In this document: positions 1 through 39,691 of the stretch, piece by piece
How the letters are laid out: every line of letters begins with the position of its first letter
How positions within the stretch are numbered: position 1 is the stretch's first letter
Assembly (NCBI GenBank): GCA_003242895.1
Contig: QKMY01000058.1
Span: forward strand, 12,739 to 76,738
From: Candidatus Margulisiibacteriota bacterium
GTDB lineage: Bacteria > Margulisbacteria > Riflemargulisbacteria > GWF2-39-127
Direction: 5' to 3'
Length of the DNA stretch: 64,000 nt
Notes under the pieces: generated by a model
Seen by the model: only the letters and a program-made list of their open reading frames with translations
Told to the model about the DNA's origin: nothing
Databases searched by the model: none
Made by a program: the position numbers and the translations under genes

Positions 1-3000
1 CCGGCCTTATATAACTATAGGTACTTCCAGTCTGATTAAATATTTTGATAGCGGTGACTTCAATATTGACACTTGTGCTGCGAAAATAGGATATACTTCT
101 GGTTACGGCCATATCATTAATGTTTCCAGCAGAATCCTTGACCCAGAGGTACACTGTTTTGATCCCAAAATCAGTATTCCTAAAAGTATATTCATAAGGT
201 TTTTCGTTACGCCAGTAATTGCTTGTAGGTGAAGGTCTTGTAGGTTGGACTTCACTTAGTATCCAGCTTACAACATCGGCATCACTATTTATGATAACGC
301 GAGGAAGCAGGTCATGGGTATAGTTAGTATCCCCCGTATCATAATCGAAGATAACAAAGGAAGGAGTACTTGCTACAGTATCGAGAACAAACTGCTTGTC
401 TCCTACCAGGGTATTCTGCACATTAGATGCATTATCTGTTACACAAAGATAAAAACTAGCCACCCCTTGAGGATCATTCTGGAAAACATTAAAGGTTGCA
501 GTATAAATATTGGGACTCACTCCGTTAAGTAAAAAGTTTAACGTGCTGCCATCAGCATAAACCAATTTAAGTTCAGGAGTTGCAGGCGTATCCTCTTGGA
601 TTGATAGCGTTAAGCTCACCGCTCCAATTGAAACAAAATCTCTTTTTGTCATATTTATCTGAGAAACAGGTTTAATGGTATCCAAAATTATGTTTTGAGA
701 TACTATGGTTTTATTAATATTCCTCGCGGAATCCTGTATCCATAAATATACTTTTCGATGCCCTTCCGGCCCAGCGTTTAATGTGTACAAGTTAGGCTTA
801 CTTGATTGCCAGCCTGCGGCGTTCCATTCAGGCTTAACTGATTGAGTCTCATTTACCATCCATTTAACCGCGGTATTGTCATTTCCAACATCGACGGCAA
901 TGGAGTACTCATTTGTATATATCTTATCTCCACTCGTTCTATCGGTTATATTCATTGTAGGATCTGCCAGAGTGATCAAAACATTAAAAGTAACGATACC
1001 GCCAAAAATCGACGTAACATTACCAGCATAATCCGTAACTCTGATATTTATTGTACATATTCCTTCCGGATAACCATCACTAATTATAATATCGCCAGCC
1101 CAATAGTTATTTATTGATCTTGACATTAGGATGGAATGAGTCGAACTGTCGCTCATTGAAAAATAAGCTTGTGGCGGGTTAATCGTATGTTCACTAACAT
1201 TTAAAGTAAGCGTATAGCTGCCAATTGCCAAATTAGGAGAATTTTTGATTGATTCCACGGTAAAATCAGCAGGAATTTTATCAATAGTATAAGGTTTGAC
1301 GAACGCAAGGCTTCTATTACCTGCGTTGTCAGTAACAGTAACATCCAGAGAAGCGCTGCTATCAAATCCCAGTGAATCGGAAATATACAAAGACCCAGTC
1401 CAGACATTAAGGCCAATGCAACTCATAATCACAGGAGCATCAATGTCAGAATGGAAAATAACTGACGGGGTAGCGCTCACAGCTTCCGAGACATTAAGGG
1501 TAATATTTAAAGTTGTATTGTTTAAATAACAATCCGGAATTGAATGAACACTAAATTCCGGAAGAAGCGTATCAACCTGAAATACAATGTCGCCACTAAG
1601 TTTATTAGATCTATTTCCAGAATAATCCACTAACTGAACATTAAATAAAGCTGCTCCATTAGCAAAATCCTCAGTAACATTAATCGTTCCGGTATAAGTC
1701 AGGGCACTTACTTGATTAAGAGTTACATTACGGGCTACCTCGCCATACCCATATAAAGTATAGTTCAAAGACACTCCAACTAAAGTTGCTTCACTGACAT
1801 TCAACGTAATATTAAGGATTCCAGCCTTAACATTAGGATATGTAGAGATTAGTATTGTTGCGGTCGGTTCATCATAATCGAGATAAATGCTCCGGCTGCC
1901 TGTTGAAGAAATATTACCGGCACGGTCCTGTATCCACAATTTGATATTTTTCGTGCTGATAACCATGTCGCTGAAAGTAAAGGTTGTCGGTTGTTGAGTA
2001 AGCCAGCCAACAGCGTCAAAGTCCGGGGTTACATTTGTTTGATCAGACAAATACCACATGTATACGCTACTATCAATGTTAACGCTAACGCCAATAGTAC
2101 GCTGATTGGTATAAGATTGAATAAGCGTAATCGGATCATAGGCGGTAAAACCCGGGGCCGAGGGCCTGGTCTTATCAATAACAAAAGTCTGCATTCCGCT
2201 AATTATCTTGTTTTGAACGTTGCTCGCATTGTCAGTGACGCTTAAACTAAAAGTTGCAACACCTTCGGGTGCCTCAGCATTAACGTTGATAGTGCCGACC
2301 CATAAATATCGAGAACTATCCATAGGAACAATATCGATTGCCAAGGCTTCTTGCCCTGCATATTGAACTTTGAAATCCGGCGTATTATTAAGTGCTAATA
2401 TTTCCTGGGTTATATTTAGAGTTATTTTGTAGTCGCCTTCTTTTATATATGGCCTGTACCCAAATTTTACTTCGGTCTGCGGAGGGGTATCATCATAAAA
2501 AATGTTAGCGCTCACTACATTTTTGTTTATATTTTTATAGGCATCCTGGACCCATAAATATAATTTTTTATTCTCATTCACTACATTCTTTAAAGTAAAA
2601 TTACTTGGTTTATCAGCGTTCCATCCCGGAGAGTTCAACGTCGGTTGAGTGCTTTGCGTATAACTGACCATATACTTGACCGCATCTTTATCGTTGCCAA
2701 TCTGCAAGCCGACAACCAAGTCGTTTACGTAGAGATTACTATCGGTATCAGTATCAATAATATTAAACGTCGGATCCGGGATCAGCGTATCAATACTAAA
2801 CGTAACGGTACCAAATAAAGAAGTTGACAGGTTACCTGCTCTATCAATAGTCTGCCCGCTTATTGTAGCCGTATCATTTACGTCAAAAGGCCTGATCTCT
2901 ACCTGGCCAATCCAGGTATGGTTTGATGATACACTATACAGTATATCGATTGAGCGTGTTAGCGCATTAGGGCTGCCGGAAGCTGGAGTCATAGTAATAA

Positions 3001-6000
3001 AATAACTCGGAGCAACCAGAATAGGTTCATTATAATTAAAGGTTACGGTAGAATACCCAATTCCTAAAGTCTTGCCTATCCTGATATTTACAGTTGGCTC
3101 CATGGTGTCCAGGGTAATCGTTCTGGTAATCAGCTTTGTATTGATATTAGCCTCAAAGGGATCGCTACTATCTTTTACCCAAAAGGCCAAGGTTTTTGGT
3201 CCGTCACCCGAGCTCAAGGTATAAGAATCAGTATACTCAGCCTTTGGCCTCCAAGCAGTAAAAGATCTCTCAGGACGAGTATAGTACGTCGCATTTTCTG
3301 TAATAATATAAAAATCAGCAAAATCATCACTGATAATATTCAAGCTGACTGTCAGTTCATTTGTAAACACCGGGGAACCGTTATTTGTATCAGTAATATT
3401 GAACGACGGATTCGGAACGACCGAAATATCGTAGGTAGTAGAAATATCGACCCTATTGCCAGCTTTATCGTATGTATTGAAAGATAACGTCATTTGTCCG
3501 CTTGGAGTATCACTATCGATATTGATGGTTGTCCTAAAAGTATTGTAAAAATTATTGCTATCAGGTGATCCGACAGGCGTAAAACTTAGTATCTTAGTTG
3601 CAGCATTAAAATAAGTAAATTTAGAATTCTTTATATTATTTGAAGGTATATACTCAGTAACAGATACGGTAAGAATATATTCTCCCGCATGAATTTTTTT
3701 AATGCCTTCGTTTAAGGATACTGTTACTTCAGGGGTTAGCAAGTCAACAAGGATAGACGCATTGATAGTACTTTCGTTATGGATATCGCTTGCGCCTTTT
3801 ACCCAAAGATTGTAAGTCACTACCGTCTCCTGATTGTCTGGCGCCAAGCTGGGGGAGATATAATAATTGTTTAAAGAAAACTCATTAGATTCACTGTTAT
3901 TCGGGCTAGTAATATCAACTAAAACGGGTTTAATCCCGATATTGCTCGTGATCATATAGTGAGTAACCAGTGCTACCTGATCGAATAGCATATTAATATA
4001 CCGTTCATTCGTATATTTCGAGCTGCTGAAATTATTAAGATTATCCCTGTCCAATATCTTTAAACTGACAAAACCTATTCCAGTAGCTACAACAAAAGTA
4101 TTAGGCCAATCGAGGTTCTCAAGATAATTACCCTGCGGCTTATCCGATACTCGCCTGTTGCCAACCAAATCCTCGGCGATGATCCTGAAAAACTGCCGTC
4201 CGTCCCCGAAACTACCATCAACAGAGAAACTGCCGGTTACAAGTTGAGAATTCACAACTGTATAGGTTAGTGTGTTTACCCGATTATCGGCCACACACAC
4301 AATATTAATAGATAGCGAGTCAGAAGCTATTGGTTCATTGAAATTAATGGTCACAGCAACGACCCCGATTCCATAAAATGTTGCGACACCAGGAGGCCGG
4401 GCCATTTCAACTGAAACAGTTGGAGCAATAGCGTCAAAATTAGTACTGACATACCGGGGCAAGCTAATGTTGCCGGCGTGATCTTTAACCCAAATATAAT
4501 AACCATACTGCCCTTGGGACTCACTATGAAAATACGTTTGAGGCCGTTCACTTAACCATGTGCCAGGAGGTATAGATGCAGGATCCGCAATTAGATTAGA
4601 GGAAATGTAATACCCTTTAATTGTAGATTCCGTAATAGCCATTGTTATATTAAAAGGGTTATCATTGGTTAGATTATAGCTGTTAGGTTTATCCATATCA
4701 TAAATAGCAGCGGTAGCTATTATGGGGATTACGGTATCAACATTTAATGTGGTTGTGCCATAAGAAAAGGTATCTGACGTAACGGTCCCGGCATTATCAG
4801 TAATCGTCATATGAAACGTTAAAAAACCATTCGGAAAGGCTTCAGTAACATTAAGTGTCGCAATGAATGCATTGCGGGTTATGTCAACAGGTGTTAGCTC
4901 GACTGAATAAGTCGTTCCACCCACTTCATAAGTCAAGTCCGGTGTTACTATAATGTTTTCTCCAATATCTAATGTTACCGAAACATCGCCTGTAGATATC
5001 CATCCGCTCTTTGTCAGCAGCAACCCGATATTAGGAACAGAAGGATCATAATAGATAGAAGTTGTAACGACGACATTATTAATATTTCCTGATTTATCCA
5101 TTAACCAACAATAGAGATACCTTGGACCTTCTTCAATGTTATCCGGGTCAAAATCGTAATTTGCGGGCTTAACTGCGGACCAAACTGCAGCTAATGGGTC
5201 TGGTTTCCCGAATTGTGCATTTTCAGTGATGATATAATAGTCGGTATCATTTGCTGCAAGTTCTACAATATTCGACAGCGAATTGGTGATCTGATTTGAC
5301 CGGTTAGCCTGACACTTGAGTTTTAAACTACCGGTAGGGATATCGATATCATATACTATAGAGTTAAAAGCGTACTGATTGGAAATATTCCCAGCCCTAT
5401 CTTTTACCCACAAATACAAATTTCTAGTTCCTTGCGTTTCATAAACAAATCTATATTGGACAGGTTCGGGCATCCAATCTTCAGCATTCTCTGATGGAAC
5501 TGCGGTCAACTCACGGATCACATACCGGAAATAATCAGGATCTTTGGATATCGTTACGTTTATTGTAGGCGTATTCGTATAACCACTACTATTATCAGGC
5601 CTGTTTAGACCACTGGTATTTACGCCCAAGGTAGGATCAGGTGGAAGTACTGTATCAAAATTAATAGTTGATATCAGTCCGGCAGGTATAACATTCGTAA
5701 TATTCAGCGCGTTGTCAGTAATAGTTAAATTAATCACAGCAGTGCCATTTTCATTTGGATCAACGGTAAAAAAACCCGCTAATGTCAGTCCGTCAAAATA
5801 ATCAAACGTAATAGTTCGCTTACTTCCCATAAAAGTTAAATAGAAATCGGGGGTCGCACTCACTGACTCAGAGATATTTACGGTTACACGGGAAGTCCCG
5901 GCTTTAATGTACCTGCCGCGCTCAAAATTGATGGAAGTAGCTTGAGGGAAAACATTATCATAATTAATGATAGCAATTGCCGGAACGGTATTAATATTGC

Positions 6001-9000
6001 CGGCAGCATCCTTGGTCCATAAGTAGGACGTCCGAGTTCCATTATTTGTATTTTTCAGTACAAAATAAACCGGAGGCGTACTCTGCCATAATGGGTCCGT
6101 CAAGCTTGGATTCGTTGACTGTGTCTCACTTATTAACCAGGCGGAAGACCTTTGATCGTAGTTATAACTTACGCCTACTACAAAATCATTGGTAAACTGA
6201 CTACTTTTCGAGTCAAGATCATACAGGATAAATGTAGGAGTAATTAAGGCAATATTAACGGTTAATTGATTACTAAAATAAATGCTCGAATATTTTAACC
6301 ATTGAACACTTGTACCGTAATTACGAGCATTATCTGTAACCTGAGCACTAAAATAAGCAGGCCCGTTGGCAGTTTGACTATTAATCGTGATTGAACCGTA
6401 AAACTGGGTTCCAGTTCGTCCTAAAATAGTTACCGGAACAGCAGCTTTCTGATATGGATTAAAATACAAATTAGGAGTGACTGATATTCCACTGGGGATA
6501 TTTAAAACATTAATAGTAACATTGAGGTTCTTTGTAGCAGTAATAGGATTTAACGGATTATGGTTAATATCGATTCCAATTTCCGGTATCAGGTTATCAT
6601 ACACAATGGTTGTAGTATTGGAGTTGATATTAAGCGCATAATCTTTGCCCCAGATATAGACATTATGAGTTCCCTGTACATTCGTCAGCTGATAGCTGGT
6701 TGGTTTGGCGCCCCAGTTACTATCTGCAGTATCAGGGACAAAAGCGCTATTTTCGGTTATTATCCACGAGTTGATATCACTGGAACCGCTTAAGGTCAGG
6801 TCAACTACCCGGGCATTTGTATAGAGTTCACTGCCAGTCAGCTTATCAAACAGTCTAAAGGTACTAATGTTCGGGGAAGTAGAATCAATAGAGATCTGCC
6901 CGCCAGCAAGAATCCCGGTCCCAACATTACTAGCATTGTCAGTTATCTTAATACCGAAGGTACCGAGGCCGTTCATTCCACTAGAATTGAACACCCAGGT
7001 ATATTTGGTACCGGATACCTTTGCCGCTGGGCCCAAAACAACACTTATTCCATTTACCGTTAAGCTCAGAAGTGGTGTTTCCTGTAGCGCTTCGCTTAGA
7101 TTAACGGTTATGGTTTTAACTCCGCCGTTTACATATGGACTGTTATCGATATCTACTGATACCGCGAAGGGAATGACATCATCATAATTAATCGTCGCAA
7201 CGGTTGAAACCGGACTTATTATTTCGTTCCGGTTCTTTACCCAGACGAAGAGGCTCTTCAACTCATTTACCCTATTTTTAAAAGTATAAGTTATTGGCCT
7301 ATCAATTCTCCAGTTTTGATCATTTGCTTCCGGAGCTACTCCAGTGCTGCTCTCACTTAATAACCAGCGTACCGCATCAGGATCGTTCCCGATATTCACA
7401 CCGATCATCTGATTATTAGTATACTGAGAGCTTGAGGTACCACGATCGAACATTGTAACGGTGGGTACTGCTACGTTTCTATTTATTCTTATTTCACCAC
7501 CGTTGATTGAGCTTATTCCGGTATTATAATAAATTTTATTTACCCGGGTTGTTGCATTACCTACAACATCGGTGACACTTACTTCAAAATTAGCAGTTCC
7601 AATAACGGTAAAAGGTACTATTCCCGAACAACTGTAACTGTTACCACCACTATTGATGATACTGCTTAAAGGCACCTCTACTTTATCCTGGCCATAGAGC
7701 TTAATCCATAAGCTAGCAGTACTTATTTGTGTTTCGTTATCCATACGTAAGGTAACGGTAACCGGGGTGCTGCTATAAACATTATGGATGTCTCCGATGC
7801 TTAATAACTGGATATCTACTGTGGGAGGAGTGTACATAGAATCATAAACAATACTGGTTGCCACATCAATCGGGCCACCCGCAAGATTATTGTTTGCGGT
7901 AGCTCGGGCAGATATATTTTGAGCAAGGTCTTTTACCCAGATGTACAATTTCTTTGCACCTTGGTCTCCGCTTAATGTGTATACCTCCGGCACTATGCCT
8001 GACCAATTACTATCATTAGCTTGAGGGGTAAAAGTATTATTCTCGGTTACCAGCCACCAGCCTATACCACTTCCACTATCACTGCTTTTTATCTCCAGAT
8101 CTACTCTATTTGAATTGGTATAGAGCGTGCTCCCAGTCAATCTATCCATAACCTTAAAACTTGTAACAACCGGGTTGGACTTATCAATAACGATACTTCC
8201 GCCACTCAGTATCTGCGAGCCAACATTATTCGCGTTATCAATTATCCTTACGCCAAATACTGCCGCACCTTCAGGTGTTGCGCCATCAATAGTCAGCGTA
8301 GCCGTATAGAGGCTGGGGCTTACTTTGGTCAGATTAAGGTTTGTTTTGACACCGCCATTAAAAGTGACCCACATTTCCGGGATCACCGCATATGGCAAAT
8401 AGGTTAGCTCTTCACTTAAATTAATGGTAACGGTTTTTGTTCCTGCACTAATATTAGGCATATTAGTAATATCTATAGAGACTACATATGGCAGCGTGGC
8501 GTCATAATTAATGGCAGCAGATGTACCGGCACTTATATTACCCATCGCATCCATGATCCAGGAATATATAGTCTTCAAGCCATTGGTATTATTTTTGAAA
8601 GTATACAAAGGCTGGTTCGAGTTTGACCACCGGCTATCCTGGGGAGAAACCGGAGGCGTATTTACTTCCGTCAGTAGCCAGTAGGAAGCTGCCCCTCCAC
8701 CCTGTAGAGTTACTGATACTACCAGATCATTAGTCCAAACCGTGCTGTAGGTGTCCTGATCGCTGAGGATCAACGTAGGTGTACCGATAATTCCCTGAGA
8801 AAAAATAAGTGACTGAATTAACTTCTCTTTTGTTGCAGTCCCGGCATTATTGGTTGCTGACAGATAGAATTCGATAGAATTAGGAGTTATGCCCGGATTA
8901 AATAAAAAATCGCCTTTATAAATATATTCCCCTGTATAATTTCCCAGACCATAATTTAAGCCTGATCCCGATAAAACAATTGGAGTCGAACTAGAATTAT

Positions 9001-12000
9001 CTTCATATCTATATACCATCTTTAATTCAGGTATAGACTGGAAATTGGGCAGTAACGAAATATCTTCTATCGACATATTTAAAGTAACATGTACCCAGGT
9101 CCCTCTGCTAATGATCTTCGGAGACAACTCAAGGGTACCATCCGGCGCACTCGCCATAATATATAGAGTTGTCGAACTTATGCTGACGTTACCTGCCCGA
9201 TCAGCTACTTCTAAATAAAGCGTCCGCATTCCTTCCGCTAATCCAGTAAACTGGAACTGCTGCCCGGTAAACCATTCAGACCAGGCGTTATTGTCAACCT
9301 TAGCCCGGAATGGACGATCTTTTAACTGACAATTATCTGCCGCCGGAGTCCAGCTTACAACAACATTATTCTTGTCATAGTAACCGGACTGCGGCCAATT
9401 AACGGCAAACCCGGTCGGACTGACAGTGTCCACATTTACTGTAACATCTTTTGTAGCCACATGGCCGGCAGCATCAGCCACTTTGATTTGGATAGATACG
9501 ATTCCCTGGACCGCCCCTACATTTATATCACCAATCGTATTCAGCGAAATACCCGATGACCAGGTTAGCCCATTATTCGTACTGAAAAAATAGGTTTTTG
9601 TATTAAGACTGACACTATCCCATGCCGGATCCCATTTTAAAGTAATCGAGCTATCATCATACCAGTTCGGTTCAGGATCAACTCCGTCTCCACCAGAATC
9701 AGAATCCTCACGAACTTCAACGAAATAAAAATTCGGAGTGGTAGTATCTACCCATTGCGAACCTACTGCTGAGGCTTTTATATTACCAGCCTTATCTGCT
9801 ACTGCCACATTAAAAGTAGCAGGTTTATAGATATTCGCCGAAGTATAGACATTCATCGTATTCGTATTATATGGAGTCCAGGATACTGTACCGATAGAAT
9901 TCTTTGCAAAATAAGGAGATGACGTGAACCCACCGACATCCTGCATTGCGGAAGTGGGAATTGTATATACGACAACAGTTTCTTTCCCATAATAGCCGAT
10001 GTCCGGCGTTACATCACCAATAAGGACCGGAGGACAAGGCAGAAAATTGACAGGAAGAAGCAGGTCCGGGCCTAGTATTACCGGGGCGACCATATCCACA
10101 TAAAACCCAGCCTGGGATTCAGTAACGTGTCCGGCCCTATCTCTTGCCTGAACATAGCCCAGGTTTTGATAACTGCCGTCATTGGAATAGGCGACAAAAT
10201 TAACGGCATTGCCATTATATGCAAATCCGCTCCAAGCATTCCATTCTGTATTAGCCGGAATATCGCTCGTTGCCACTCTGTAACGGTAAGCACCACCAGA
10301 TTGATATGGTCCGGAGGCATCTGACATTTCCCAGGAGAAATCTACAGTGTTGTCATCATAATAAGGAAATATGGGAGAGATTCCGTCACTATTGCTATCA
10401 CTATCAGGAGCAATCGCCATATTTAAGACAGGGGCCGTCAGATCGACAATTATGTTTTTTGAAAAAGTCGACGAATTGCCGACACTATCTCGAGCTATTA
10501 CGTATACGGTATGAACCCCTTCGCTTAAAGAACAGGTTAGACTTCCGTTCGCAGATTGTCCCCAAACAGGCGCAGCAGAATCAAGCTGATAAGCAACTGA
10601 GTTAATTCCTGAACCTGAATCACTAATACTCCAGCTAAAACCTACGGTTGTTTGATCAAAATACCCATTCTCCGGTTGATAAATGCTCGACCCGTCAGTA
10701 TCATCGGCAATAGTTATAGAACCGACAGGGCCAGTTGTGTCGATAAGGAATGGCCCTATATGGGTTGAATTTGTACTATAGTTAGCTACCTTGTCTTTTG
10801 ATCTGACATGAAACCATAGATTATTCCCATCAATCAATGAAGCCTGGTAATAAATATTAGCCGCAGCGACACCAGGCGCAGGCTCTGTATTGGAATTAGT
10901 ATCCCAAGAGTATACGTATCCATCTAATCCACTGTGTGCGTCACTTGCCTGGTTCCAATCGATTCTTACTACAGGGTTATTACTCCAGGTACCGGTAGTA
11001 TGTCCAGACGTACATCTAACGTTGGCTACATCAGTTGGGGGGGTTACATCCACCCAGAATGGACCACGATGAGCAGTAGAAGCAGAGATATTTATGGCTT
11101 GATCCTCCGGGCGAATATGCAGCCAATAATTCTGAGCAGATACTAGCGCAGAGGCAGGAAACGTATAATATGTCACGTTACCGAAACCATTATCGCTGCT
11201 CGTTACCAATGTACCGGAAACATTATCGAGCTTATATCTATAGGTATTAATGCCACTACCGCCTTGATCATACGATGTCGTCCAGTACGCACCGATATTT
11301 GGTAACCATGTACCAGTTGCAGGAGCGGTTATTGAAATGTCAGGAGGAATAGTCGTATCGATTTTTAGCAGAAAACTAGTAACATTCCCCCATGTTCCAG
11401 CATTGTTTTTTGCTCGTACATTGATTGAATAGGTACCTTCAGTTTTAGTTATTTGGAATGTTTGCAGAGGGTCACTGCCAGCAGGATCTACGATGATAAT
11501 CCCGTTTGTATCACCAGGGGTAGTGCCATCGGTTGTATAGCTATATCTATCAATTCCAGACACACTAAACGGGGCATTAATTGAAAAGGTAAAAACTCCG
11601 CTCTTATTCGTCCATCCGTTTACTCCATCCGGCATTGATGCGCCTCCGCTGTGGACACAGCTCAAAACCGGCCCTGCAGGAATAGCCGCATCAATCTTAA
11701 ATGGTCCTAAATTAGCTTCCACACCGACATTTCCGACATTATCCACAGCATGCACATGGAAATATGCGGTTGCTGAATTGGGCAGTACAATATTATTTAA
11801 TTGAGTTCCCACCGTATCATAGGTGCCATCAGCCAAAGTACCGGCAGATGCATTCGCGGCATACGAGTATCCGGCTACTCCTGATTGTGTGGCGTAGGTA
11901 ACATTATCATTTGAAGCATTCCACTGCATCGACAACATATTATTAGCTGTCCAGATCCCATTAGCCTGAACACCTGCTGTTCTTATTAATCCGGTAATAT

Positions 12001-13696
12001 TTGAAGGATTGGTCACATCTACCCAGAATGGCCCGCGATGAGCAGTATTGTAAGAAAGGTTGCTGGCGGAATCTTCAGGACGGATATGCAGGTAATAATC
12101 CTGTGCAGTAACGAGTGGAGAAGGAAGAAAAGTATAGCTAGTCACATTACCTACTCCGGAATCAGTGCTGTTTAACACTGTTGCTGAGGCCCTATCAAAT
12201 CTATATCGATAGGTGCTGATATTACTTCCGCCCATATCATTCGACATATTCCAGTATGCATTAACACTTTTCATCCAGGTGCTTGTATTCGGAGCTGTTA
12301 TCATGATATCCGGAGGGTTAGAAATATCTATATTTAATATAAAAGTCCTCGTTTGACTCCAGACGCCCGAAATACTTTTAACTTTTGCTTTAAAAGTATA
12401 AGTCCCTTGCGTTGAATAGGTACTTGGTAATGTGTATGAACTAGCAGCCTGGTCAATGATTGTGTCTGGTTCTGATCCATCCGTTGTATAGCTGATCCCT
12501 GCCATTCCGGAAATATTGCTCGGCGCTGTTATCGTAATCTGATGTCCAGTCAGGTTAGTCCAGACATTACTTACAGTACCCCTGCTGCTCACTATTGCCG
12601 GAGCGGCAGTGGAAGCATCTATCCAGACTTGGCTAAGGCTTGCCTCTGAACTCTCATTGCCTGCATTATCAACAGTCTTTACATATAACGTATATTTTCC
12701 ATCGATCGGACTGGCTTGAGAGGCACTTGTACCTGTAGTCGTACCTGAATAGGTCGTGTTAGTGCCAACCAACCTCCAACGATATTCTTTTAGTCCGCTC
12801 CCGCCAGAATCTGTAGCTGCAGTCCAGGAAAATGAAATCGGAGTTGCATTATTTGTATACCAGGTATTAAGTGTATGGGAAGTGCAGGAGAAACTTCCTG
12901 GTATCGAAGGGGCTATTGAGTCTATATAAAAAGGTCCCACATTAGTTGGAAGCGTTCCGGTATAGGTATGTCCCGCATCATCATTAACTACATTAAAATT
13001 AAGATATTGAGCGGTTGTGCTGGAAGTGTTGTAATCAAAAACATATGTTGGGCTATTTGAGGTATAATTTCCCCAATTCGTATATATATTTAATGGAGCG
13101 GCTCCACTGTCGTTTGTTTGCACTGTTACACGGACACTTTGATACCATGTTGGACCGCTGCCGGTTTTTACGGTTGATTGTGAAACAGAAGAAATAGGGT
13201 TCCAGTCAGCTTTGATTGTTATGGAATCAGAATATTGACTGCCATTAATGTAACAGGTTCCAGTATGAGTATTTGAACCCCCATTTGAGATTGCCCCATT
13301 CGGATTGTTAACATACAGAGAGTATGGGCTTGCATGACCACATCCTCCTGATGAGTAACTGATAGTGTAGCTTGAATATCCTGAGTTGGTAATATATCCG
13401 TTTGTCAAAGGAGCAGAACAGTAGAGACTGGCATAAGCTGAATAATAATCATGATAATCGTAATGTCCCGCAGAACAATATTGACAAGGATACGAGTAAT
13501 ATCCAGTACAATTCCCCATGCCGTCGTAGCCAGTGCAATAGCCGCAGGAGGTCCAAGCATACGAATCACACACCCACCAGTTATGGTATCCAGGCCAGGA
13601 AGCTGAAGATGCCCAGCTACCAGCGGCAGTGATTAGCAACATAATCACCCCGAAAAATAACGCATATAAAAATGTAATATTTTTAATCTTCCTCAA
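1..13696 (-). CDS. Giant secreted Ig-like repeat surface protein (partial, C-terminus lies beyond window start); >=4565 codons in window
   Basis: Manual minus-strand translation in the frame with codon first bases at coordinates = 1 mod 3 runs from TTG 13696 to position 2 without a stop. GAGGA 6 nt upstream; in-frame TGA at 13706-13708; alternative ATG at 13642. N-terminus MRKIKNITFLYALFFGVIMLLITAAGSWASSASW looks like a signal peptide. Recurrent motifs such as LYLWVKDRAGNIS and VTVTDNAGN. Not in the supplied ORF track, presumably because there is no stop inside the window. Confidence 0.85.
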   Translation of the reverse strand, partial: MRKIKNITFLYALFFGVIMLLITAAGSWASSASWPGYHNWWVCDSYAWTSCGYCTGYDGMGNCTGYYSYPCQYCSAGHYDYHDYYSAYASLYCSAPLTNGYITNSGYSSYTISYSSGGCGHASPYSLYVNNPNGAISNGGSNTHTGTCYINGSQYSDSITIKADWNPISSVSQSTVKTGSGPTWYQSVRVTVQTNDSGAAPLNIYTNWGNYTSNSPTYVFDYNTSSTTAQYLNFNVVNDDAGHTYTGTLPTNVGPFYIDSIAPSIPGSFSCTSHTLNTWYTNNATPISFSWTAATDSGGSGLKEYRWRLVGTNTTYSGTTTGTSASQASPIDGKYTLYVKTVDNAGNESSEASLSQVWIDASTAAPAIVSSRGTVSNVWTNLTGHQITITAPSNISGMAGISYTTDGSEPDTIIDQAASSYTLPSTYSTQGTYTFKAKVKSISGVWSQTRTFILNIDISNPPDIMITAPNTSTWMKSVNAYWNMSNDMGGSNISTYRYRFDRASATVLNSTDSGVGNVTSYTFLPSPLVTAQDYYLHIRPEDSASNLSYNTAHRGPFWVDVTNPSNITGLIRTAGVQANGIWTANNMLSMQWNASNDNVTYATQSGVAGYSYAANASAGTLADGTYDTVGTQLNNIVLPNSATAYFHVHAVDNVGNVGVEANLGPFKIDAAIPAGPVLSCVHSGGASMPDGVNGWTNKSGVFTFSINAPFSVSGIDRYSYTTDGTTPGDTNGIIIVDPAGSDPLQTFQITKTEGTYSINVRAKNNAGTWGNVTSFLLKIDTTIPPDISITAPATGTWLPNIGAYWTTSYDQGGSGINTYRYKLDNVSGTLVTSSDNGFGNVTYYTFPASALVSAQNYWLHIRPEDQAINISASTAHRGPFWVDVTPPTDVANVRCTSGHTTGTWSNNPVVRIDWNQASDAHSGLDGYVYSWDTNSNTEPAPGVAAANIYYQASLIDGNNLWFHVRSKDKVANYSTNSTHIGPFLIDTTGPVGSITIADDTDGSSIYQPENGYFDQTTVGFSWSISDSGSGINSVAYQLDSAAPVWGQSANGSLTCSLSEGVHTVYVIARDSVGNSSTFSKNIIVDLTAPVLNMAIAPDSDSNSDGISPIFPYYDDNTVDFSWEMSDASGPYQSGGAYRYRVATSDIPANTEWNAWSGFAYNGNAVNFVAYSNDGSYQNLGYVQARDRAGHVTESQAGFYVDMVAPVILGPDLLLPVNFLPCPPVLIGDVTPDIGYYGKETVVVYTIPTSAMQDVGGFTSSPYFAKNSIGTVSWTPYNTNTMNVYTSANIYKPATFNVAVADKAGNIKASAVGSQWVDTTTPNFYFVEVREDSDSGGDGVDPEPNWYDDSSITLKWDPAWDSVSLNTKTYFFSTNNGLTWSSGISLNTIGDINVGAVQGIVSIQIKVADAAGHVATKDVTVNVDTVSPTGFAVNWPQSGYYDKNNVVVSWTPAADNCQLKDRPFRAKVDNNAWSEWFTGQQFQFTGLAEGMRTLYLEVADRAGNVSISSTTLYIMASAPDGTLELSPKIISRGTWVHVTLNMSIEDISLLPNFQSIPELKMVYRYEDNSSSTPIVLSGSGLNYGLGNYTGEYIYKGDFLFNPGITPNSIEFYLSATNNAGTATKEKLIQSLIFSQGIIGTPTLILSDQDTYSTVWTNDLVVSVTLQGGGAASYWLLTEVNTPPVSPQDSRWSNSNQPLYTFKNNTNGLKTIYSWIMDAMGNISAGTSAAINYDATLPYVVSIDITNMPNISAGTKTVTINLSEELTYLPYAVIPEMWVTFNGGVKTNLNLTKVSPSLYTATLTIDGATPEGAAVFGVRIIDNANNVGSQILSGGSIVIDKSNPVVTSFKVMDRLTGSTLYTNSNRVDLEIKSSDSGSGIGWWLVTENNTFTPQANDSNWSGIVPEVYTLSGDQGAKKLYIWVKDLAQNISARATANNNLAGGPIDVATSIVYDSMYTPPTVDIQLLSIGDIHNVYSSTPVTVTLRMDNETQISTASLWIKLYGQDKVEVPLSSIINSGGNSYSCSGIVPFTVIGTANFEVSVTDVVGNATTRVNKIYYNTGISSINGGEIRINRNVAVPTVTMFDRGTSSSQYTNNQMIGVNIGNDPDAVRWLLSESSTGVAPEANDQNWRIDRPITYTFKNRVNELKSLFVWVKNRNEIISPVSTVATINYDDVIPFAVSVDIDNSPYVNGGVKTITVNLSEALQETPLLSLTVNGISVVLGPAAKVSGTKYTWVFNSSGMNGLGTFGIKITDNASNVGTGILAGGQISIDSTSPNISTFRLFDKLTGSELYTNARVVDLTLSGSSDINSWIITENSAFVPDTADSNWGAKPTSYQLTNVQGTHNVYIWGKDYALNINSNTTTIVYDNLIPEIGIDINHNPLNPITATKNLNVTINVLNIPSGISVTPNLYFNPYQKAAVPVTILGRTGTQFYGSITINSQTANGPAYFSAQVTDNARNYGTSVQWLKYSSIYFSNQLTVNIALITPTFILYDLDSKSSQFTNDFVVGVSYNYDQRSSAWLISETQSTNPSLTDPLWQSTPPVYFVLKNTNNGTRTSYLWTKDAAGNINTVPAIAIINYDNVFPQATSINFERGRYIKAGTSRVTVNISESVSATPDFYLTFMGSKRTITFDYFDGLTLAGFFTVDPNENGTAVINLTITDNALNITNVIPAGLISTINFDTVLPPDPTLGVNTSGLNRPDNSSGYTNTPTINVTISKDPDYFRYVIRELTAVPSENAEDWMPEPVQYRFVYETQGTRNLYLWVKDRAGNISNQYAFNSIVYDIDIPTGSLKLKCQANRSNQITNSLSNIVELAANDTDYYIITENAQFGKPDPLAAVWSAVKPANYDFDPDNIEEGPRYLYCWLMDKSGNINNVVVTTSIYYDPSVPNIGLLLTKSGWISTGDVSVTLDIGENIIVTPDLTYEVGGTTYSVELTPVDITRNAFIATLNVTEAFPNGFLTFHMTITDNAGTVTSDTFSYGTTTLNVDTVIPIIATAAIYDMDKPNSYNLTNDNPFNITMAITESTIKGYYISSNLIADPASIPPGTWLSERPQTYFHSESQGQYGYYIWVKDHAGNISLPRYVSTNFDAIAPTVSVEMARPPGVATFYGIGVVAVTINFNEPIASDSLSINIVCVADNRVNTLTYTVVNSQLVTGSFSVDGSFGDGRQFFRIIAEDLVGNRRVSDKPQGNYLENLDWPNTFVVATGIGFVSLKILDRDNLNNFSSSKYTNERYINMLFDQVALVTHYMITSNIGIKPVLVDITSPNNSESNEFSLNNYYISPSLAPDNQETVVTYNLWVKGASDIHNESTINASILVDLLTPEVTVSLNEGIKKIHAGEYILTVSVTEYIPSNNIKNSKFTYFNAATKILSFTPVGSPDSNNFYNTFRTTINIDSDTPSGQMTLSFNTYDKAGNRVDISTTYDISVVPNPSFNITDTNNGSPVFTNELTVSLNIISDDFADFYIITENATYYTRPERSFTAWRPKAEYTDSYTLSSGDGPKTLAFWVKDSSDPFEANINTKLITRTITLDTMEPTVNIRIGKTLGIGYSTVTFNYNEPILVAPSYFITMTPASGSPNALTRSIDILYSVSSNHTWIGQVEIRPFDVNDTATISGQTIDRAGNLSTSLFGTVTFSIDTLIPDPTFNIIDTDTDSNLYVNDLVVGLQIGNDKDAVKYMVSYTQSTQPTLNSPGWNADKPSNFTLKNVVNENKKLYLWVQDAYKNINKNVVSANIFYDDTPPQTEVKFGYRPYIKEGDYKITLNITQEILALNNTPDFKVQYAGQEALAIDIVPMDSSRYLWVGTINVNAEAPEGVATFSLSVTDNASNVQNKIISGMQTFVIDKTRPSAPGFTAYDPITLIQSYTNQRTIGVSVNIDSSVYMWYLSDQTNVTPDFDAVGWLTQQPTTFTFSDMVISTKNIKLWIQDRAGNISSTGSRSIYLDYDEPTATILISTYPNVKAGILNITLNVSEATLVGVSLNYTLYGYGEVARNVTLNQVSALTYTGTINVTEDFANGAALFNVQLVDYSGNRSNKLSGDIVFQVDTLLPEFSVHSIPDCYLNNTTLNITLNVSEAVSATPSVIFHSDIDAPVIMSCIGLNVWTGSLYISDSLGFDSSASLDVTVTDNAGNRSLAFVKPYTIDKIPADFTVESIKNSPNLAIGSYTLTLNVSEHTINPPQAYFSMSDSSTHSILMSRSINNYWAGDIIISDGYPEGICTINIRVTDYAGNVTSIFGGIVTFNVLITLADPTMNITDRTSGDKIYTNEYSIAVDVGNDNTAVKWMVNETQSVKPEWNAAGWQSSKPNLYTLNAGPEGHRKVYLWIQDSARNINKTIVSQNIILDTIKPVSQINMTKRDFVSIGAVSLTLSIQEDTPATPELKLVYADGSTLNFLLNGVSPNIYTATFNVFQNDPQGVASFYLCVTDNASNVQNTLVGDKQFVLDTVASTPSFVIFDYDTGDTNYTHDLLPRVIINSDADVVSWILSEVQPTRPSPTSNYWRNEKPYEYTFRNTDFGIKTVYLWVKDSAGNINDMAVTRSISYFRSTSVNIEVTAIKIFNQTGSTYSYIRP
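100..7960 (-). repeat. Tandem coding repeat array inside the giant gene: ~13 diverged copies of a ~200-220 aa two-domain module (period ~600-680 nt)
   Basis: Motif [LF]W[VI][KQ]D-x-AGNI recurs at approx. 135, 740, 1925, 2555, 3180, 3805, 4485, 5095, 5405, 6020, 6640, 7240, 7930, interleaved with a second motif (V-T/D-D-N-A-x-N). Copies are conserved at protein level but diverged at DNA level. Confidence 0.7.
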
Positions 13697-13727
13697 TAGA
13701 TATCCTCAATTATTCTATACGTAATAC

Positions 13728-15068
13728 CTATTTTGCACATCTGAACCCTGTACAGCCACAAGGACTCGAAGGAGCTATTCCGGCCATAATGGAAAAAACC
13801 CCTGATTGTTCATTCATTTTGTGTTCTCCGCCTCTCAGCAAAGCGGCAGGGAAGCATTGTCCTTCCGCTTGATTAGAAGCTGATTTAACTTCACTAACAC
13901 TATCGTTACCATAGGAAACTCCCGTATTAGGAAAAAATCCGGGATCATACTGACCTTTACCGATTCTTATCATTTTCAGGGTTTCTACTATCAATTTCTC
14001 TATATCCTTAAATTTTGGATCAATTTCTAATGTAAATGCTTTCATATCAGGCTGAAATCTACTCGATATCTTTCTGTTTTCATCGAGGTAATAATTCTTC
14101 TTTAATTCTTCCCAGATTTCTTCAGATTTAAACGAGGTTTTTTTTTCAATCTCATCAAAGGCATTTTTTTGTACTGGCCCCTGATAAAACATGCCATTAC
14201 CCTGCATCCAGTCGCTTACCCATTCATTTACATTCCCCGCCATGCCAACACAGCCAAAGGTAGAAATTTCCTGAGCGGCTATAGTGTCCCAGGAGGCCGG
14301 AAGTTCCCCTCCCCGCCCTTTGCTTAACGCCGTGCCTGCTGCGCCGTCCTGCCATTCGCCGTTTGTCACCAGCCGCTTCCCTGCGTTAACTGCTGCCCTG
14401 CGAGCGACAAACCAGGTCATTCCGGTCGAACACTCAGCCCTTTGAGAAAAAGCCATCCAATATGGTGGCACATTCTGGCCATTACCCGCCAAAATCCCAA
14501 AATCATTATGATTATGATCATGTTGGCTGTCTTTTTTATTTTCGTTCCGCTGAATAAAATATGTCCCTTTTACGTCAGCACCTTTATAATCTGCACCCAC
14601 ATCAATTATCCGGCAGGAATACTTATCTATCCAAACGGTACCTACCTTCACCTGTATATCATCTTGCCCGCATCGGTATGCCGGCATATCCGGATTGTAT
14701 TTGTTATTAATATGAGTTCCTGGCGGCAACTGATCCAGTTTGCCATGAAAAAAACCGACATTATTTCCTGTTACTATCCAGGAAACAGGATCTCCAGGAT
14801 CAATTGTGCCCCGGCTGGCATCTATGACTTTATTATATTTCCAGGCCCTTTCTTCATCATCCCACCCTACCCATAGAGCATTAAACATTAGATAACTCTG
14901 TCCATTATTGCTAAAATCCGGCCATTGATATACCGGAACAGAGTTAGCATAATAGTTGGGTAACCGGTTATCAACCTGCTGAACCGCGGCTTCGCCGACA
15001 ACTGAAAATACCATTAAAAAAAAGCATAGTGAAAGTATAATTCTGATCTTGTGATAAAATTGCATCAT
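13728..15068 (-). CDS. FGE-sulfatase/SUMF1-family domain protein (formylglycine-generating-enzyme-like; GldK/GldJ-like possibility), secreted
   Basis: 446 aa with N-terminal signal peptide. Motifs AGKRLVTNGEWQDGAAGT and MAGNVNEWVSDW resemble the FGE signatures RLPTEAEW..ARGG and GNVWEW. ~140-aa C-terminal extension ending PCGCTGFRCAK. 31 bp upstream of the giant gene, same strand. Confidence 0.65.
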   Translation of the reverse strand: MMQFYHKIRIILSLCFFLMVFSVVGEAAVQQVDNRLPNYYANSVPVYQWPDFSNNGQSYLMFNALWVGWDDEERAWKYNKVIDASRGTIDPGDPVSWIVTGNNVGFFHGKLDQLPPGTHINNKYNPDMPAYRCGQDDIQVKVGTVWIDKYSCRIIDVGADYKGADVKGTYFIQRNENKKDSQHDHNHNDFGILAGNGQNVPPYWMAFSQRAECSTGMTWFVARRAAVNAGKRLVTNGEWQDGAAGTALSKGRGGELPASWDTIAAQEISTFGCVGMAGNVNEWVSDWMQGNGMFYQGPVQKNAFDEIEKKTSFKSEEIWEELKKNYYLDENRKISSRFQPDMKAFTLEIDPKFKDIEKLIVETLKMIRIGKGQYDPGFFPNTGVSYGNDSVSEVKSASNQAEGQCFPAALLRGGEHKMNEQSGVFSIMAGIAPSSPCGCTGFRCAK

Positions 15069-15076
15069 CGTCTCCC

Positions 15077-15790
15077 TTATAATAAAAATAAAATACCTAG
15101 CGCTAAAAACGTAAAAGCCATAACCAACTTAAACCAACCTATTTTTTCTGTCAAAAATCCGGAAAGCTTCCGGGAAGAAAGCCCGCTGTAAGTTAATAAT
15201 CCGATTATGATTAAAGGAAAAACAAAAAATACGTTATAAACGAACAATAGCAATGTGCCCTTTATCGCAGAACCGGTTTTTATCATATACAGAATCGAAG
15301 GGAAATATATCTGTCCGGTACAGTTCAGCTCAAATATAGATACCAGGAAACCTAATACCAGTGAGGCAATCACGATATTTCCTGTCATGGTTTTCTCTCT
15401 GATTGCGTTTTTAATTCTTTTTTGTAAAAAGTCCGGTAACCGTAAGATGAACTTATTTTTTTTTGTAAATGCCAGATAAGCATCATAAAAAGAAAGGGCC
15501 GAACCAATGAATGCAAGACCTGCTATAACGCATTGAAAAAGCCTGGCAACAATAAAGTATGAACCGGTTTTATAAAGAAATTGAAATAAGCCAAACCCTA
15601 TCAAAAAATAGGTAACAAACACTGCTATCGTAAATAATGCAAAAGAAAGCATCATTTCCTGTTTTCTCTGTCGTACTGACAGGTACGAGAGCAAAAAAAT
15701 TACCGTACCAAATGCACACGGATTTATTCCGTCGATTAAACCTGCCATGCATATAGTAATAAAACTGAGATTAACCAAACTATTTAGCAT
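15077..15790 (-). CDS. CcdA/DsbD_2-family thiol:disulfide transmembrane electron-transfer protein
   Basis: 237 aa, polytopic and hydrophobic. N-terminal motif GLIDGINPCAF and a second membrane-embedded Cys (FELNCTGQIY), as in the cytochrome c biogenesis transmembrane (DsbD_2) family. Confidence 0.55.
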   Translation of the reverse strand: MLNSLVNLSFITICMAGLIDGINPCAFGTVIFLLSYLSVRQRKQEMMLSFALFTIAVFVTYFLIGFGLFQFLYKTGSYFIVARLFQCVIAGLAFIGSALSFYDAYLAFTKKNKFILRLPDFLQKRIKNAIREKTMTGNIVIASLVLGFLVSIFELNCTGQIYFPSILYMIKTGSAIKGTLLLFVYNVFFVFPLIIIGLLTYSGLSSRKLSGFLTEKIGWFKLVMAFTFLALGILFLL

Positions 15791-19561: not shown

Positions 19562-19585
19562 ACAATAATCCCCCTTATTTATTCT

Positions 19586-25910: not shown

Positions 25911-26145
25911 TTTTTCTCCCCTATTTACAAACCTTTTTAAACATCTCTCTTACATAAATTTATCGTAAATAAAAAATGATTATTTCATATTTTTTAAATC
26001 AAAGTAACTATCCCACTATATGCGAAGGTAAAATAATAGTACATATACCATGATATTTTTCTTTTGGCAACATACCATAAACAAAACGACATATAATACT
26101 TTATCAATATTATATAGGTGGGGATAAACCAGATTTTTCATAAAT

Positions 26146-26181: not shown

Positions 26182-26205
26182 GTTTTTATTTTAAAATGTT
26201 AAATA

Positions 26206-37468: not shown

Positions 37469-37471
37469 ACA

Positions 37472-39654: not shown

Positions 39655-39691
39655 TATTCATAAAATTCACTATATAGATAATGGAGACAAA

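What the first reader, a model, noticed from the sequence alone, without database searches (positions are those of the whole stretch)
100..7960. Regular ~200-aa two-domain super-repeat, conserved in protein but diverged in DNA
The motif [LF]W[VI][KQ]D-x-AGNI recurs 13 times (approx. 135, 740, 1925, 2555, 3180, 3805, 4485, 5095, 5405, 6020, 6640, 7240, 7930), alternating with a DNA-x-N motif. Spacing is mostly 600-680 nt. Nucleotide sequences of the copies differ substantially, which indicates an old, selectively maintained array, less prone to recombinational collapse than recent tandem repeats. Irregular intervals (310 nt at 5095/5405, 1185 nt at 740/1925) mark module loss or insertion.
Basis: seen in the sequence. 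Interest (0 to 1): 0.5.

Follow-up and report, generated by a model that had tools for sequence, protein, structure and literature searches.

The report
Giant surface protein with alternating Ig-like domains
The repeats are real: they are the stalk of a 5,692-residue secreted surface protein of an uncultured Margulisbacteria bacterium, built from two alternating Ig-like domain types in an old, conserved array, a known kind of giant surface fibre with some unusual neighbouring genes.

Summary
Window 2-13696 is the first 4,565 codons of one gene. It runs off the window start. Its public near-identical copy is a 5,692-aa 'hypothetical protein' of Candidatus Margulisbacteria.

Window 32-8770 encodes 14 A-type (~108 aa) and 14 B-type (~90 aa) domains. 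AlphaFold2 models one A-B unit as two beta-sandwiches (pLDDT 91.9). The order is (AB)x5, A, (AB)x6, B, B, A, B, A. The 303-nt interval is an A-A junction. The 1,194-nt interval is A-B-B-B-A.

Copies share 24-27% protein identity and 40-42% DNA identity, so only the fold and short motifs are conserved. The array is old:
- Homologues keep the same domain order and the same irregularities.
- Twelve assemblies show no length variation.
- Strain-level pN/pS is 0.12.

Neither domain reaches a Pfam threshold. The A-B alternation was found only in Margulisbacteria proteins. A-only arrays occur in other phyla.

Best reading (inferred): an extended cell-surface fibre or adhesin stalk. It has a Sec-type signal peptide and a C-terminal domain resembling a T9SS sorting domain. 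A PorV-like outer-membrane barrel gene and a TPR/FliG-like membrane protein gene lie in the same gene cluster, and that pair recurs next to a paralogous giant gene.

This is a new variant of a known kind, of moderate interest.

The parts
2..13696 (-). 5' 13.7 kb (4,565 codons) of a giant gene that runs off the window start; the full-length public copy is 5,692 aa
   Evidence: Open frame with no stop codon. It is 99.85% identical in protein to P0001, OGH99173.1 and OGI02940.1. The DNA of L001 is 99.8% identical.
13694..13707 (-). GAGGA ribosome-binding site (13707-13703), a 6-nt spacer, and the TTG start codon (13696-13694)
   Evidence: Read directly from the sequence. Public annotations call the same start.
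13610..13696 (-). Signal-peptide-like N-terminus: RKIK, then a hydrophobic stretch, then SWA|SS
   Evidence: Sequence and hydropathy. No dedicated signal-peptide predictor was run.
13256..13576 (-). Cys/Tyr/Gly/Ser-rich N-terminal region (10 Cys); a possible distal head
   Evidence: Sequence. No homologues or family matches were found.
8771..13255 (-). N-terminal region of about 12-14 more divergent Ig-like domains (hits to Y_Y_Y, Big_13 and the OmpL47-type domain)
10715..12535 (-). Younger three-domain duplication inside the N-terminal region: 12535-11666 versus 11584-10715, 48% protein and 59% DNA identity
32..8770 (-). A-B super-repeat array of 14 A and 14 B domains, in the order (AB)x5, A, (AB)x6, B, B, A, B, A
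8444..8770 (-).
8159..8443 (-). B1
7781..8155 (-).
7499..7768 (-). B2
7124..7456 (-).
6860..7123 (-). B3
6542..6856 (-).
6266..6532 (-). B4
5900..6229 (-).
5630..5899 (-). B5
5294..5614 (-).
4991..5311 (-).
4712..4990 (-). B6
4379..4708 (-).
4109..4366 (-). B7
3695..4060 (-).
3401..3685 (-). B8
3056..3400 (-).
2765..3058 (-). B9
2438..2764 (-).
2150..2437 (-). B10
1823..2146 (-).
953..1822 (-). B11-B12-B13 (1547-1822, 1256-1516, 953-1222); three B domains in a row explain the ~1,194-nt interval
626..952 (-).
356..625 (-). B14
32..355 (-).
13728..15068 (-). Upstream gene, 31 nt from the giant gene: secreted 446-aa protein with a partial FGE-sulfatase-like domain and 9 Cys (context)
   Evidence: No NCBIfam or PDB sequence match.
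15077..16880 (-). DsbD-type membrane protein (15077-15790) and a secreted UshA-like/thioredoxin-like protein (15780-16880) (context)
16901..19561 (-). 886-aa protein with an N-terminal hydrophobic segment, TPR repeats, a second membrane helix (~530-548) and a FliG middle/C-terminal-like module (618-836) (context; conserved partner)
19586..20827 (-). 413-aa PorV/PorQ-family-like outer-membrane barrel with a C-terminal helical repeat; first gene of the tightly packed cluster (context; conserved partner)

Best explanation
Window 32-8770 (minus strand) encodes the central stalk of a giant secreted cell-surface protein of Candidatus Margulisbacteria (5,692 aa in full).

Shown:
- The stalk is a chain of small beta-sandwich (Ig-like) domains of two distinct types, A (~108 aa) and B (~90 aa), which alternate.
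- The array arose by duplication of A-B units and A-B-A-B blocks well before the present species and gene paralogues diverged.
- Each position has since evolved on its own under purifying selection, so only the fold, the core residues and the junction motif (D-x-AGN ... D-x-x-x-P) survive.
- The DNA copies are no longer similar enough to recombine or to collapse in assembly.

Inferred mechanism:
- The protein is exported by Sec, using its N-terminal signal peptide.
- It is taken to or held at the outer-membrane surface through its C-terminal domain, which resembles FlgD-Ig and T9SS type A sorting domains. A dedicated PorV-like outer-membrane barrel encoded in the same gene cluster would take part.
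- About 50 domains in series then form a rod roughly 150-200 nm long. This length is my estimate by analogy with SiiE, whose 53 BIg domains form a linear rod-like molecule (PMC5466336); I did not check SiiE's measured length in a paper.
- The rod would hold the Cys/Tyr-rich N-terminal end away from the cell, as an adhesin or spacer fibre.
- Alternating two dissimilar domain types, together with low identity between like neighbours, would also limit misfolding between adjacent domains. This last point rests on general knowledge of tandem-domain proteins.
For: Gene and organism
- One open frame.
- It is 99.85% identical to a 5,692-aa protein present in at least 12 public assemblies and named Candidatus Margulisbacteria.

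Domains
- 14 A and 14 B copies.
- AlphaFold2 model of one unit: pLDDT 91.9, pTM 0.76, all-beta.
- The B profile's best PDB sequence match is SiiE, E 8e-4.

Age and selection
- Collinear domain correspondence with P0002, P0003 and P0004 at 35-68% identity, against 30-49% for the best within-protein paralogue.
- The A-A and B-B-B irregularities are conserved in homologues.
- A-A and B-B similarity matrices are correlated: r 0.49, reached by 24 of 10,000 permutations.
- pN/pS is 0.12.
- No indels among assemblies.

Export and anchoring
- Signal-like N-terminus preceded by a ribosome-binding site.
- The C-terminal domain hits FlgD_ig, Por_Secre_tail, CHU_C and the C-terminal domains of PorU and PorZ. 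These pass curated cut-offs in some paralogues.
- The pair of PorV-like and TPR/FliG-like genes recurs next to a paralogous giant gene.
Against: - No experimental data exist for this protein or organism.
- For this protein the C-terminal domain is below both curated thresholds (TIGR04183 19.3 against 23; FlgD_ig 24.0 against 27).
- The C-terminal domain lies outside the window and is known only from the public copy.
- No core T9SS component (SprA, PorK/L/M/N, PorU) is seen in the 64-kb window or in L001.
- In the papers I read, T9SS is described as a feature of Bacteroidota or the FCB superphylum (PMC12635249, PMC12398890).
- No ligand-binding or catalytic domain was identified, so 'adhesin' rests on analogy.
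- Ca2+ binding and rod rigidity were not tested.
Confidence: 0.62

Rival explanations
1. Motor-coupled mobile adhesin. The giant protein would be carried by its PorV-like outer-membrane partner. It would be moved or exported by a proton-driven envelope machine made of a MotA/MotB-like stator and the TPR/membrane-helix/FliG-like protein. This would work like SprB-SprF on the Bacteroidota gliding track.
For: - The PorV-like and TPR/FliG-like gene pair is conserved in four other loci.
- In three of those loci a MotA_ExbB plus MotB_plug/OmpA pair lies directly upstream, transcribed divergently.
- Residues 618-836 of the 886-aa protein match FliG middle/C-terminal crystal structures at E ~1e-13.
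- Predicted topology puts that module in the cytoplasm, where MotA meets FliG in flagella (general knowledge).
- In Bacteroidota, a giant adhesin (SprB) is held by a dedicated outer-membrane carrier and moved by an energised track of FGE-fold proteins joined by disulfide bonds (PMC12635249).
- This gene cluster also holds an FGE-like protein with 9 Cys, a DsbD-type protein and a thioredoxin-like protein.
Against: - No MotA/MotB gene is in this window.
- The FGE-like protein matches no GldK, GldJ or PorK model and no PDB sequence.
- The PorV-like family has no conserved cysteine, unlike SprF.
- FliG-like folds also occur in non-motor proteins such as MgtE (my own knowledge).
- Gene adjacency is not proof of a shared machine.
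Confidence: 0.15
2. Structural coat. The protein would be a component of an S-layer, sheath or matrix covering the cell, not a projecting adhesin.
For: - Neighbouring genes encode SLH-domain envelope proteins.
- There are several giant paralogues per genome.
Against: - The giant protein has no SLH domain or other known S-layer anchor.
- 5,692 aa in about 50 serial domains is far larger than typical S-layer subunits.
- The best multi-domain structural match is a rod-like adhesin.
Confidence: 0.12
3. Substrate-capturing scaffold. The Ig-like arrays would act as carbohydrate-binding or spacer modules for nutrient acquisition, as in large glycoside hydrolases.
For: - A-type arrays occur in a 6,288-aa GH18 chitinase-like protein of Marinifilaceae (P0013).
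- Some fold matches are CBM-like or glycosidase accessory domains.
Against: No catalytic or recognised CBM domain was found in this protein or its Margulisbacteria paralogues.
Confidence: 0.08
4. Type 1-secreted RTX-class adhesin, a true member of the SiiE/LapA/MpIBP group.
For: - Similar size and rod of Ig-like domains.
- SiiE is the best two-domain structural match and the best PDB sequence match.
Against: - An N-terminal signal peptide is present.
- There are no RTX repeats and no T1SS-type C-terminus; the C-terminus is like FlgD-Ig and T9SS sorting domains.
- No ABC transporter, membrane-fusion or TolC-type genes lie in the gene cluster.
Confidence: 0.02
5. Artefact: a non-coding or mis-assembled repeat region, or a decaying pseudogene.
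For: Paralogous giant genes sit at contig edges in other assemblies.
Against: - 13.7 kb of open frame.
- A high-confidence fold.
- pN/pS 0.12.
- Identical length in at least 12 independent assemblies.
- No similar DNA repeats that could mislead an assembler.
Confidence: 0.01

Closest known systems
SiiE of Salmonella enterica (595 kDa, 53 BIg domains; PDB 2YN3; PMC5466336)
   Same: - A giant protein of more than 5,500 aa made almost wholly of serial Ig-like beta-sandwich domains.
- Best PDB sequence match of the B profile, through the shared ...D-x-AGN motif.
- Likely a rod that projects a binding end beyond the cell surface.
   Different: - SiiE is a type 1 secretion substrate with no N-terminal signal peptide, and has one BIg family throughout.
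- This protein has a signal peptide and a FlgD-Ig/T9SS-like C-terminal domain.
- It has two alternating domain families.
- Sequence similarity is marginal (E 8e-4 for B, none for A).
- Ca2+ sites were not tested.
SprB adhesin with its carrier SprF in Flavobacterium gliding / T9SS (PMC12635249)
   Same: - A giant repetitive surface protein with a Sec signal and a C-terminal sorting domain.
- A dedicated outer-membrane barrel gene nearby.
- An FGE-fold protein and disulfide-handling genes in the same cluster.
- Stator-like genes next to the homologous clusters in other genomes.
   Different: - The phylum is different: Margulisbacteria, not Bacteroidota.
- The C-terminal domain is nearer type A than type B, and is sub-threshold.
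- No SprA, GldK/L/M/N or GldJ homologue was detected in the sequence available.
- The partner barrel lacks conserved cysteines.
- A FliG-like protein takes part here, which is not a T9SS component.
Higher-order repeats of two module types: titin Ig/Fn3 super-repeats, and the alternating modules of Staphylococcus aureus Ebh (own knowledge)
   Same: - A regular alternation of two different small domains.
- The alternating unit was duplicated as a whole (Mantel r 0.49).
- Identity between neighbouring domains is low.
   Different: - No homology beyond the general Ig-like fold.
- The organisms, cellular locations and domain families are different.
RTX adhesins with near-identical tandem BIg repeats (MpIBP, LapA; own knowledge)
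   Same: A long extender region of Ig-like domains in a bacterial surface protein.
   Different: - Those extender repeats are nearly identical in DNA and vary in copy number.
- Here the copies share about 41% DNA identity, and copy number is fixed across assemblies.

Membership tests
Giant tandem Ig-like (BIg-type) bacterial surface proteins (structural class) | Most of the protein is a serial array of ~90-110-aa beta-sandwich domains | tested here: met
   28 A/B domains plus about 12-14 divergent ones in the window. AlphaFold2 pLDDT 91.9, all-beta. Ig, Fn3, macroglobulin-type and SiiE structural matches.
Giant tandem Ig-like (BIg-type) bacterial surface proteins (structural class) | Exported from the cytoplasm | tested here: met
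   The N-terminus has a basic stretch, a hydrophobic stretch and SWA|S. This is a heuristic reading; no dedicated predictor was run.
Giant tandem Ig-like (BIg-type) bacterial surface proteins (structural class) | Ca2+ sites at domain junctions that stiffen the rod (as in SiiE) | not testable with these tools
   Conserved Asp residues sit at both junctions (D4, D91 and D173 of the unit). Metal binding cannot be computed here.
Type 1-secreted RTX adhesins (SiiE/LapA/MpIBP) | No N-terminal signal peptide; C-terminal RTX repeats or T1SS signal; adjacent ABC, membrane-fusion and outer-membrane genes | tested here: not met
   A signal peptide is present. The C-terminus is FlgD-Ig/T9SS-like with no RTX hit. 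The neighbours are not T1SS genes.
T9SS cargo proteins | C-terminal sorting domain reaching the curated score of TIGR04183 or PF18962 | tested here: inconclusive
   This protein scores 19.3 against 23, and 15.5 against 27. Paralogues P0005 (26.6) and P0008 (23.2) pass TIGR04183. FlgD_ig passes in 4 of 5 paralogues and scores 24.0 against 27 here.
T9SS cargo proteins | PorV/PorQ/PorP-type outer-membrane carrier | tested here: inconclusive
T9SS cargo proteins | Core machinery in the genome (SprA/Sov, PorK/L/M/N, PorU) | not testable with these tools
   None is seen in the 64-kb window or in L001. The rest of the genome was not available.
T9SS cargo proteins | Organism belongs to Bacteroidota or the FCB group | tested here: not met
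   Public copies are named Candidatus Margulisbacteria / Riflemargulisbacteria.
Pfam Ig-like families (Big_13, Big_3_3, Big_5, Y_Y_Y, DUF7743) | Gathering-threshold match on the super-repeat domains | tested here: not met
   No hit at E <= 0.1 on the whole protein in the repeat region. Single units give only 12-15 bits against 27 for Big_3_3 and Big_13. DUF7743 in P0057 covers the partner domain, not A.
SLH-anchored S-layer proteins | SLH domains in the protein | tested here: not met
   No SLH hit in the window part or in the C-terminal part.
Recent or hypervariable tandem repeats (prone to collapse or copy-number change) | Near-identical DNA copies and copy-number variation between strains | tested here: not met
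   DNA identity is 0.31-0.52 between copies. TRF finds nothing relevant. Twelve assemblies have no indels.

The most novel reading that the evidence does not exclude
Margulisbacteria, a lineage next to Cyanobacteria and outside the phyla known to have type 9 secretion, may possess a previously undescribed envelope-spanning machine. Its parts would be a PorV-like outer-membrane barrel, a TPR/membrane-helix/FliG-like inner-membrane protein and a MotA/MotB-like stator. It would export, anchor or move a family of giant Ig-rod proteins that carry T9SS-like C-terminal domains. The A-B stalk in this window would be its cargo.
Probability: 0.2. Interest if true: 0.7.

Novelty: new variant of a known kind. 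Interest (0 to 1): 0.4.

Why it matters
The repeat array itself is a clean example of an old tandem-domain array. It has kept its order and copy number while losing almost all sequence similarity. That makes it useful for studying how long multidomain proteins avoid recombination and misfolding between neighbours.

Two broader points follow.
- The A-type domain reaches no Pfam threshold. The A-B unit profile (A and B together) finds about 12,000 cluster representatives at E <= 0.001, and A-type tandem arrays turn up in proteins of several phyla. It deserves a family definition.
- The gene neighbourhood links giant surface proteins in an uncultured phylum to a PorV-like barrel and a FliG-like membrane protein. 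If these act together, this would extend T9SS-like or motor-coupled surface biology beyond Bacteroidota.

A survey has already noted that Margulisbacteria are rich in proteins of 5,000 aa or more, without describing them (bioRxiv 10.1101/2023.11.21.568195).

Tried and rejected
Searches that led nowhere
- Word-indexed homologue search with the whole protein timed out.
- The same search with the last 407 aa and with the first 297 aa found nothing. This happened even though a 99.85% identical protein is in the collection, so those negatives say nothing about rarity.
- The genome-collection scan with 921 aa found no relative.
- The AFDB50 fold library was unavailable.
- The upstream context of paralogues P0002, P0004 and P0165 could not be read, because each gene starts at a contig edge.
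- Literature searches found no paper linking Margulisbacteria to type 9 secretion or describing these proteins.

Ideas tested and dropped
- A-type domain equals Pfam DUF7743: rejected. In P0057 that model covers the domain between the A copies.
- The FGE-like neighbour is a GldK/PorK/GldJ equivalent: no model match and no PDB sequence match.
- SprF-like conserved cysteines in the PorV-like family: none found.
- MotA/MotB genes in this window: none found.
- An excess of N-x-S/T sequons: weak, 67 observed against 52 +/- 6.

Full report
**1. What is there**

The window's first 13.7 kb is one open frame on the minus strand. It runs from a TTG at 13696, preceded by GAGGA at 13707-13703, to the window edge, with no stop codon.

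All 13 listed positions hold the C-terminal motif of one domain type. Only three match the motif as written; the rest are variants. A 14th copy lies at ~8566. A relaxed pattern occurs 13 times against 0.04 expected in residue shuffles.

A self-comparison shows a ~200-210-aa period from residue ~1640 to the window edge. The N-terminal third has separate ~100-aa and ~310-aa periods.

**2. Anatomy of the array**

Iterated profile searches within the protein resolve 14 A-type (~108 aa) and 14 B-type (~90 aa) domains between window 8770 and 32. The order is (AB)x5, A, (AB)x6, B, B, A, B, A.
- The 303-nt interval is an A-A junction.
- The 1,194-nt interval is A-B-B-B-A.
- The other A-to-A spacings are 597-699 nt.

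Conserved consensus of each type:
- A: ...D..T.S..YTN....V....D.....W.I.E.....P......W....P..YTL.....G.K..YLWVKD.AGNI.......I.YD...P
- B: G...VTLN..E....TP.......G.............S.....G...I......G.A.F....TDNAGN......G......D...P

Profile-profile comparison aligns A with B only over the last ~39 columns (probability 47%, E 2e-4). They are therefore two families that share a C-terminal strand motif, not variants of one repeat.

AlphaFold2 models one A-B unit, using the 12 in-window units as its alignment, as two beta-sandwiches with pLDDT 91.9 and pTM 0.76.

**3. Divergence and age**

| Measure | A | B |
|---|---|---|
| Mean pairwise protein identity | 27% | 24% |
| Codon-aligned DNA identity | 42% | 40% |
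| DNA identity expected from composition | 26% | 26% |
| Same codon used at identical residues | 47% | 42% |

No tandem DNA repeat is detectable. 'Conserved in protein' is therefore true only for the fold and the motifs.

The array is nevertheless stable and old:

(a) The profile search of 1.84 billion cluster representatives finds a full-length public copy, P0001 (5,692 aa), that differs in 7 of 4,565 residues. Twelve independent assemblies of it are collinear with no indels. The 5,674-aa versions only use the ATG 18 codons downstream as their start.

(b) The DNA of one such copy (L001) differs at 24 of 13,695 positions, 17 synonymous and 7 non-synonymous, giving pN/pS 0.12.

(c) Domains 7-26 of the array correspond one-to-one, in order, to domains of P0002 and P0004 (another Margulisbacteria genome) and of P0003 (a paralogue in the same genome).
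- Identity is 35-68%, mostly 40-68%.
- In nearly all cases this exceeds the best match to any other domain in the same protein (30-49%).
- The A-A and B-B-B irregularities are present in those proteins too.

(d) A-A and B-B similarity matrices are correlated (r 0.49, reached by 24 of 10,000 permutations). Units two apart are the most alike in the first four units. This indicates duplication of A-B units and of an A-B-A-B block.

**4. Identity of the protein and its family**

Sources name the protein and its relatives 'hypothetical protein' of Candidatus Margulisbacteria or Riflemargulisbacteria. At least four giant paralogue families occur in one metagenome-assembled genome.

The rest of the window fits a diderm bacterium with SLH-anchored envelope proteins. 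It holds a cell-division and wall-synthesis cluster, polA and SLH proteins.

No Pfam or NCBIfam model reaches threshold on the super-repeat. The A profile has no PDB sequence relative, and B weakly matches SiiE.

The A-B unit profile finds 12,013 proteins at E <= 0.001. Among the proteins inspected:
- The A-B alternation occurs only in Margulisbacteria proteins.
- A forms A-only arrays in Nitrospirota, Desulfuromonadales and a Marinifilaceae GH18 protein.
- A alternates with other ~100-aa partners elsewhere, for example with DUF7743 in P0057.

Structural neighbours are generic Ig, Fn3 and macroglobulin-type domains. The best two-domain superposition is with the giant adhesin SiiE.

**5. The ends of the protein and the neighbourhood**

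N-terminus: a signal-peptide-like segment, then a Cys/Tyr-rich ~110-aa region with no detectable relatives.

C-terminal 1,130 aa (outside the window, read from P0001/L001):
- one odd ~100-aa domain;
- a 15th A-B unit;
- a Gly-rich linker;
- four ~125-aa repeats;
- Fn3 domains;
- a final ~100-aa domain with the NYPNPF motif and a conserved ...IIGVIH end.

That final domain matches FlgD_ig, Por_Secre_tail, CHU_C and the C-terminal domains of PorU and PorZ. For this protein the matches are below the curated cut-offs; for some paralogues they are above.

The giant gene is the last of six tightly packed minus-strand genes, with gaps of 31 nt or less or short overlaps:
- a PorV/PorQ-family-like barrel (413 aa);
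- a TPR/membrane-helix/FliG-like protein (886 aa);
- a UshA-like/thioredoxin-like protein (366 aa);
- a DsbD-type membrane protein (237 aa);
- an FGE-like protein with 9 Cys (446 aa);
- the giant gene itself.

The pair of PorV-like and FliG-like genes is conserved in four other loci.
- In the paralogous locus (L005/L006) it is followed by another giant gene.
- In three loci from other organisms it is preceded by a divergent MotA/MotB-like pair.

**6. Interpretation**

Shown:
- a real, expressed-looking, conserved gene for a giant exported protein;
- a stalk made of an ancient alternating array of two Ig-like domain types;
- fixed copy number and purifying selection.

Inferred:
- It forms a long surface fibre or adhesin.
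- Its C-terminal domain and the dedicated PorV-like barrel take part in outer-membrane passage or anchoring, as for T9SS cargo and their carriers (PMC12635249).
- In that case the N-terminal Cys/Tyr-rich end would be distal.

The protein is not a member of the T1SS RTX adhesin group. Membership of T9SS cargo is not established: the scores are sub-threshold, the phylum is outside the known range and no core machinery has been seen.

The motor-coupled reading is the most novel one not excluded.

**7. Verdict**

The finding is correct and its interpretation holds. The object is a new variant of a well-known kind of protein. Interest is moderate. It is raised somewhat by the A and B domains reaching no Pfam threshold and by the conserved, unusual gene partners.

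Noticed in passing
window 16901-20827 (minus); L005-L009: A PorV/PorQ-like barrel gene followed by a gene for a TPR/membrane-helix/FliG middle-and-C-terminal-like protein. The pair is conserved in four other loci (40-57% identity). In L007, L008 and L009 a divergent MotA_ExbB plus MotB_plug/OmpA pair sits directly upstream. In L005/L006 a paralogous giant gene follows the pair.
   Followed up: partly
window 13728-16880 (minus): Three envelope proteins lie immediately upstream of the giant gene: an FGE-sulfatase-like protein with 9 Cys, a DsbD-type membrane protein, and a UshA-like protein with a thioredoxin/DsbG-like C-terminal part. This looks like a disulfide-handling set placed next to a giant protein with a Cys-rich head.
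   Followed up: partly
window 23580-31634 (minus): A second envelope cluster. It holds a 776-aa protein with a PorV-family barrel (121 bits, above the cut-off), SLH domains and a FlgD-Ig domain. It also holds a 1,268-aa protein with a CIA30-like domain and a T9SS-like C-terminal tail. Two small secreted proteins follow, one of which shares the N-terminal AANYGLI(A/G)IQA motif with the 1,268-aa protein.
   Followed up: partly
window 10715-12535 (minus): Within the N-terminal part of the giant gene there is a younger three-domain duplication (12535-11666 versus 11584-10715). It has 48% protein and 59% DNA identity, much closer than any pair in the A-B array.
   Followed up: yes
window 2-2296 (minus) versus L001: 19 of the 24 nucleotide differences from the near-identical strain fall in the last ~765 codons of the window part. 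That is about 0.8% divergence against about 0.04% elsewhere, which may mark a recombination tract or a local hotspot.
   Followed up: no
L001 27181-34867: Downstream of the giant gene in the public contig lie an FkbM-type methyltransferase, a helicase, a SLATT_6 plus SMODS pair (defence-like) and a Roc-COR GTPase.
   Followed up: no
L002 75, L003 143, L004 19: Three other giant genes of this family each begin within 150 nt of a contig end. Assemblies therefore tend to break in their 5' parts, and the public versions are truncated at the N-terminus.
   Followed up: no
P0057, P0115, P0150, P0017, P0020 (related proteins): In other phyla the A-type domain alternates regularly with different ~100-aa partner domains, such as DUF7743 in P0057. 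B-like domains likewise alternate with other partners. Two-type alternation seems to be a recurring design for these domains.
   Followed up: partly
window 36311-50798 (plus): A cell-division and wall-synthesis cluster (murD, ftsW/spoVE-like, murG, murC, ftsA, ftsZ), followed by a protein with weak similarity to SLH-type porins. This fits a diderm envelope tethered by SLH domains.
   Followed up: no
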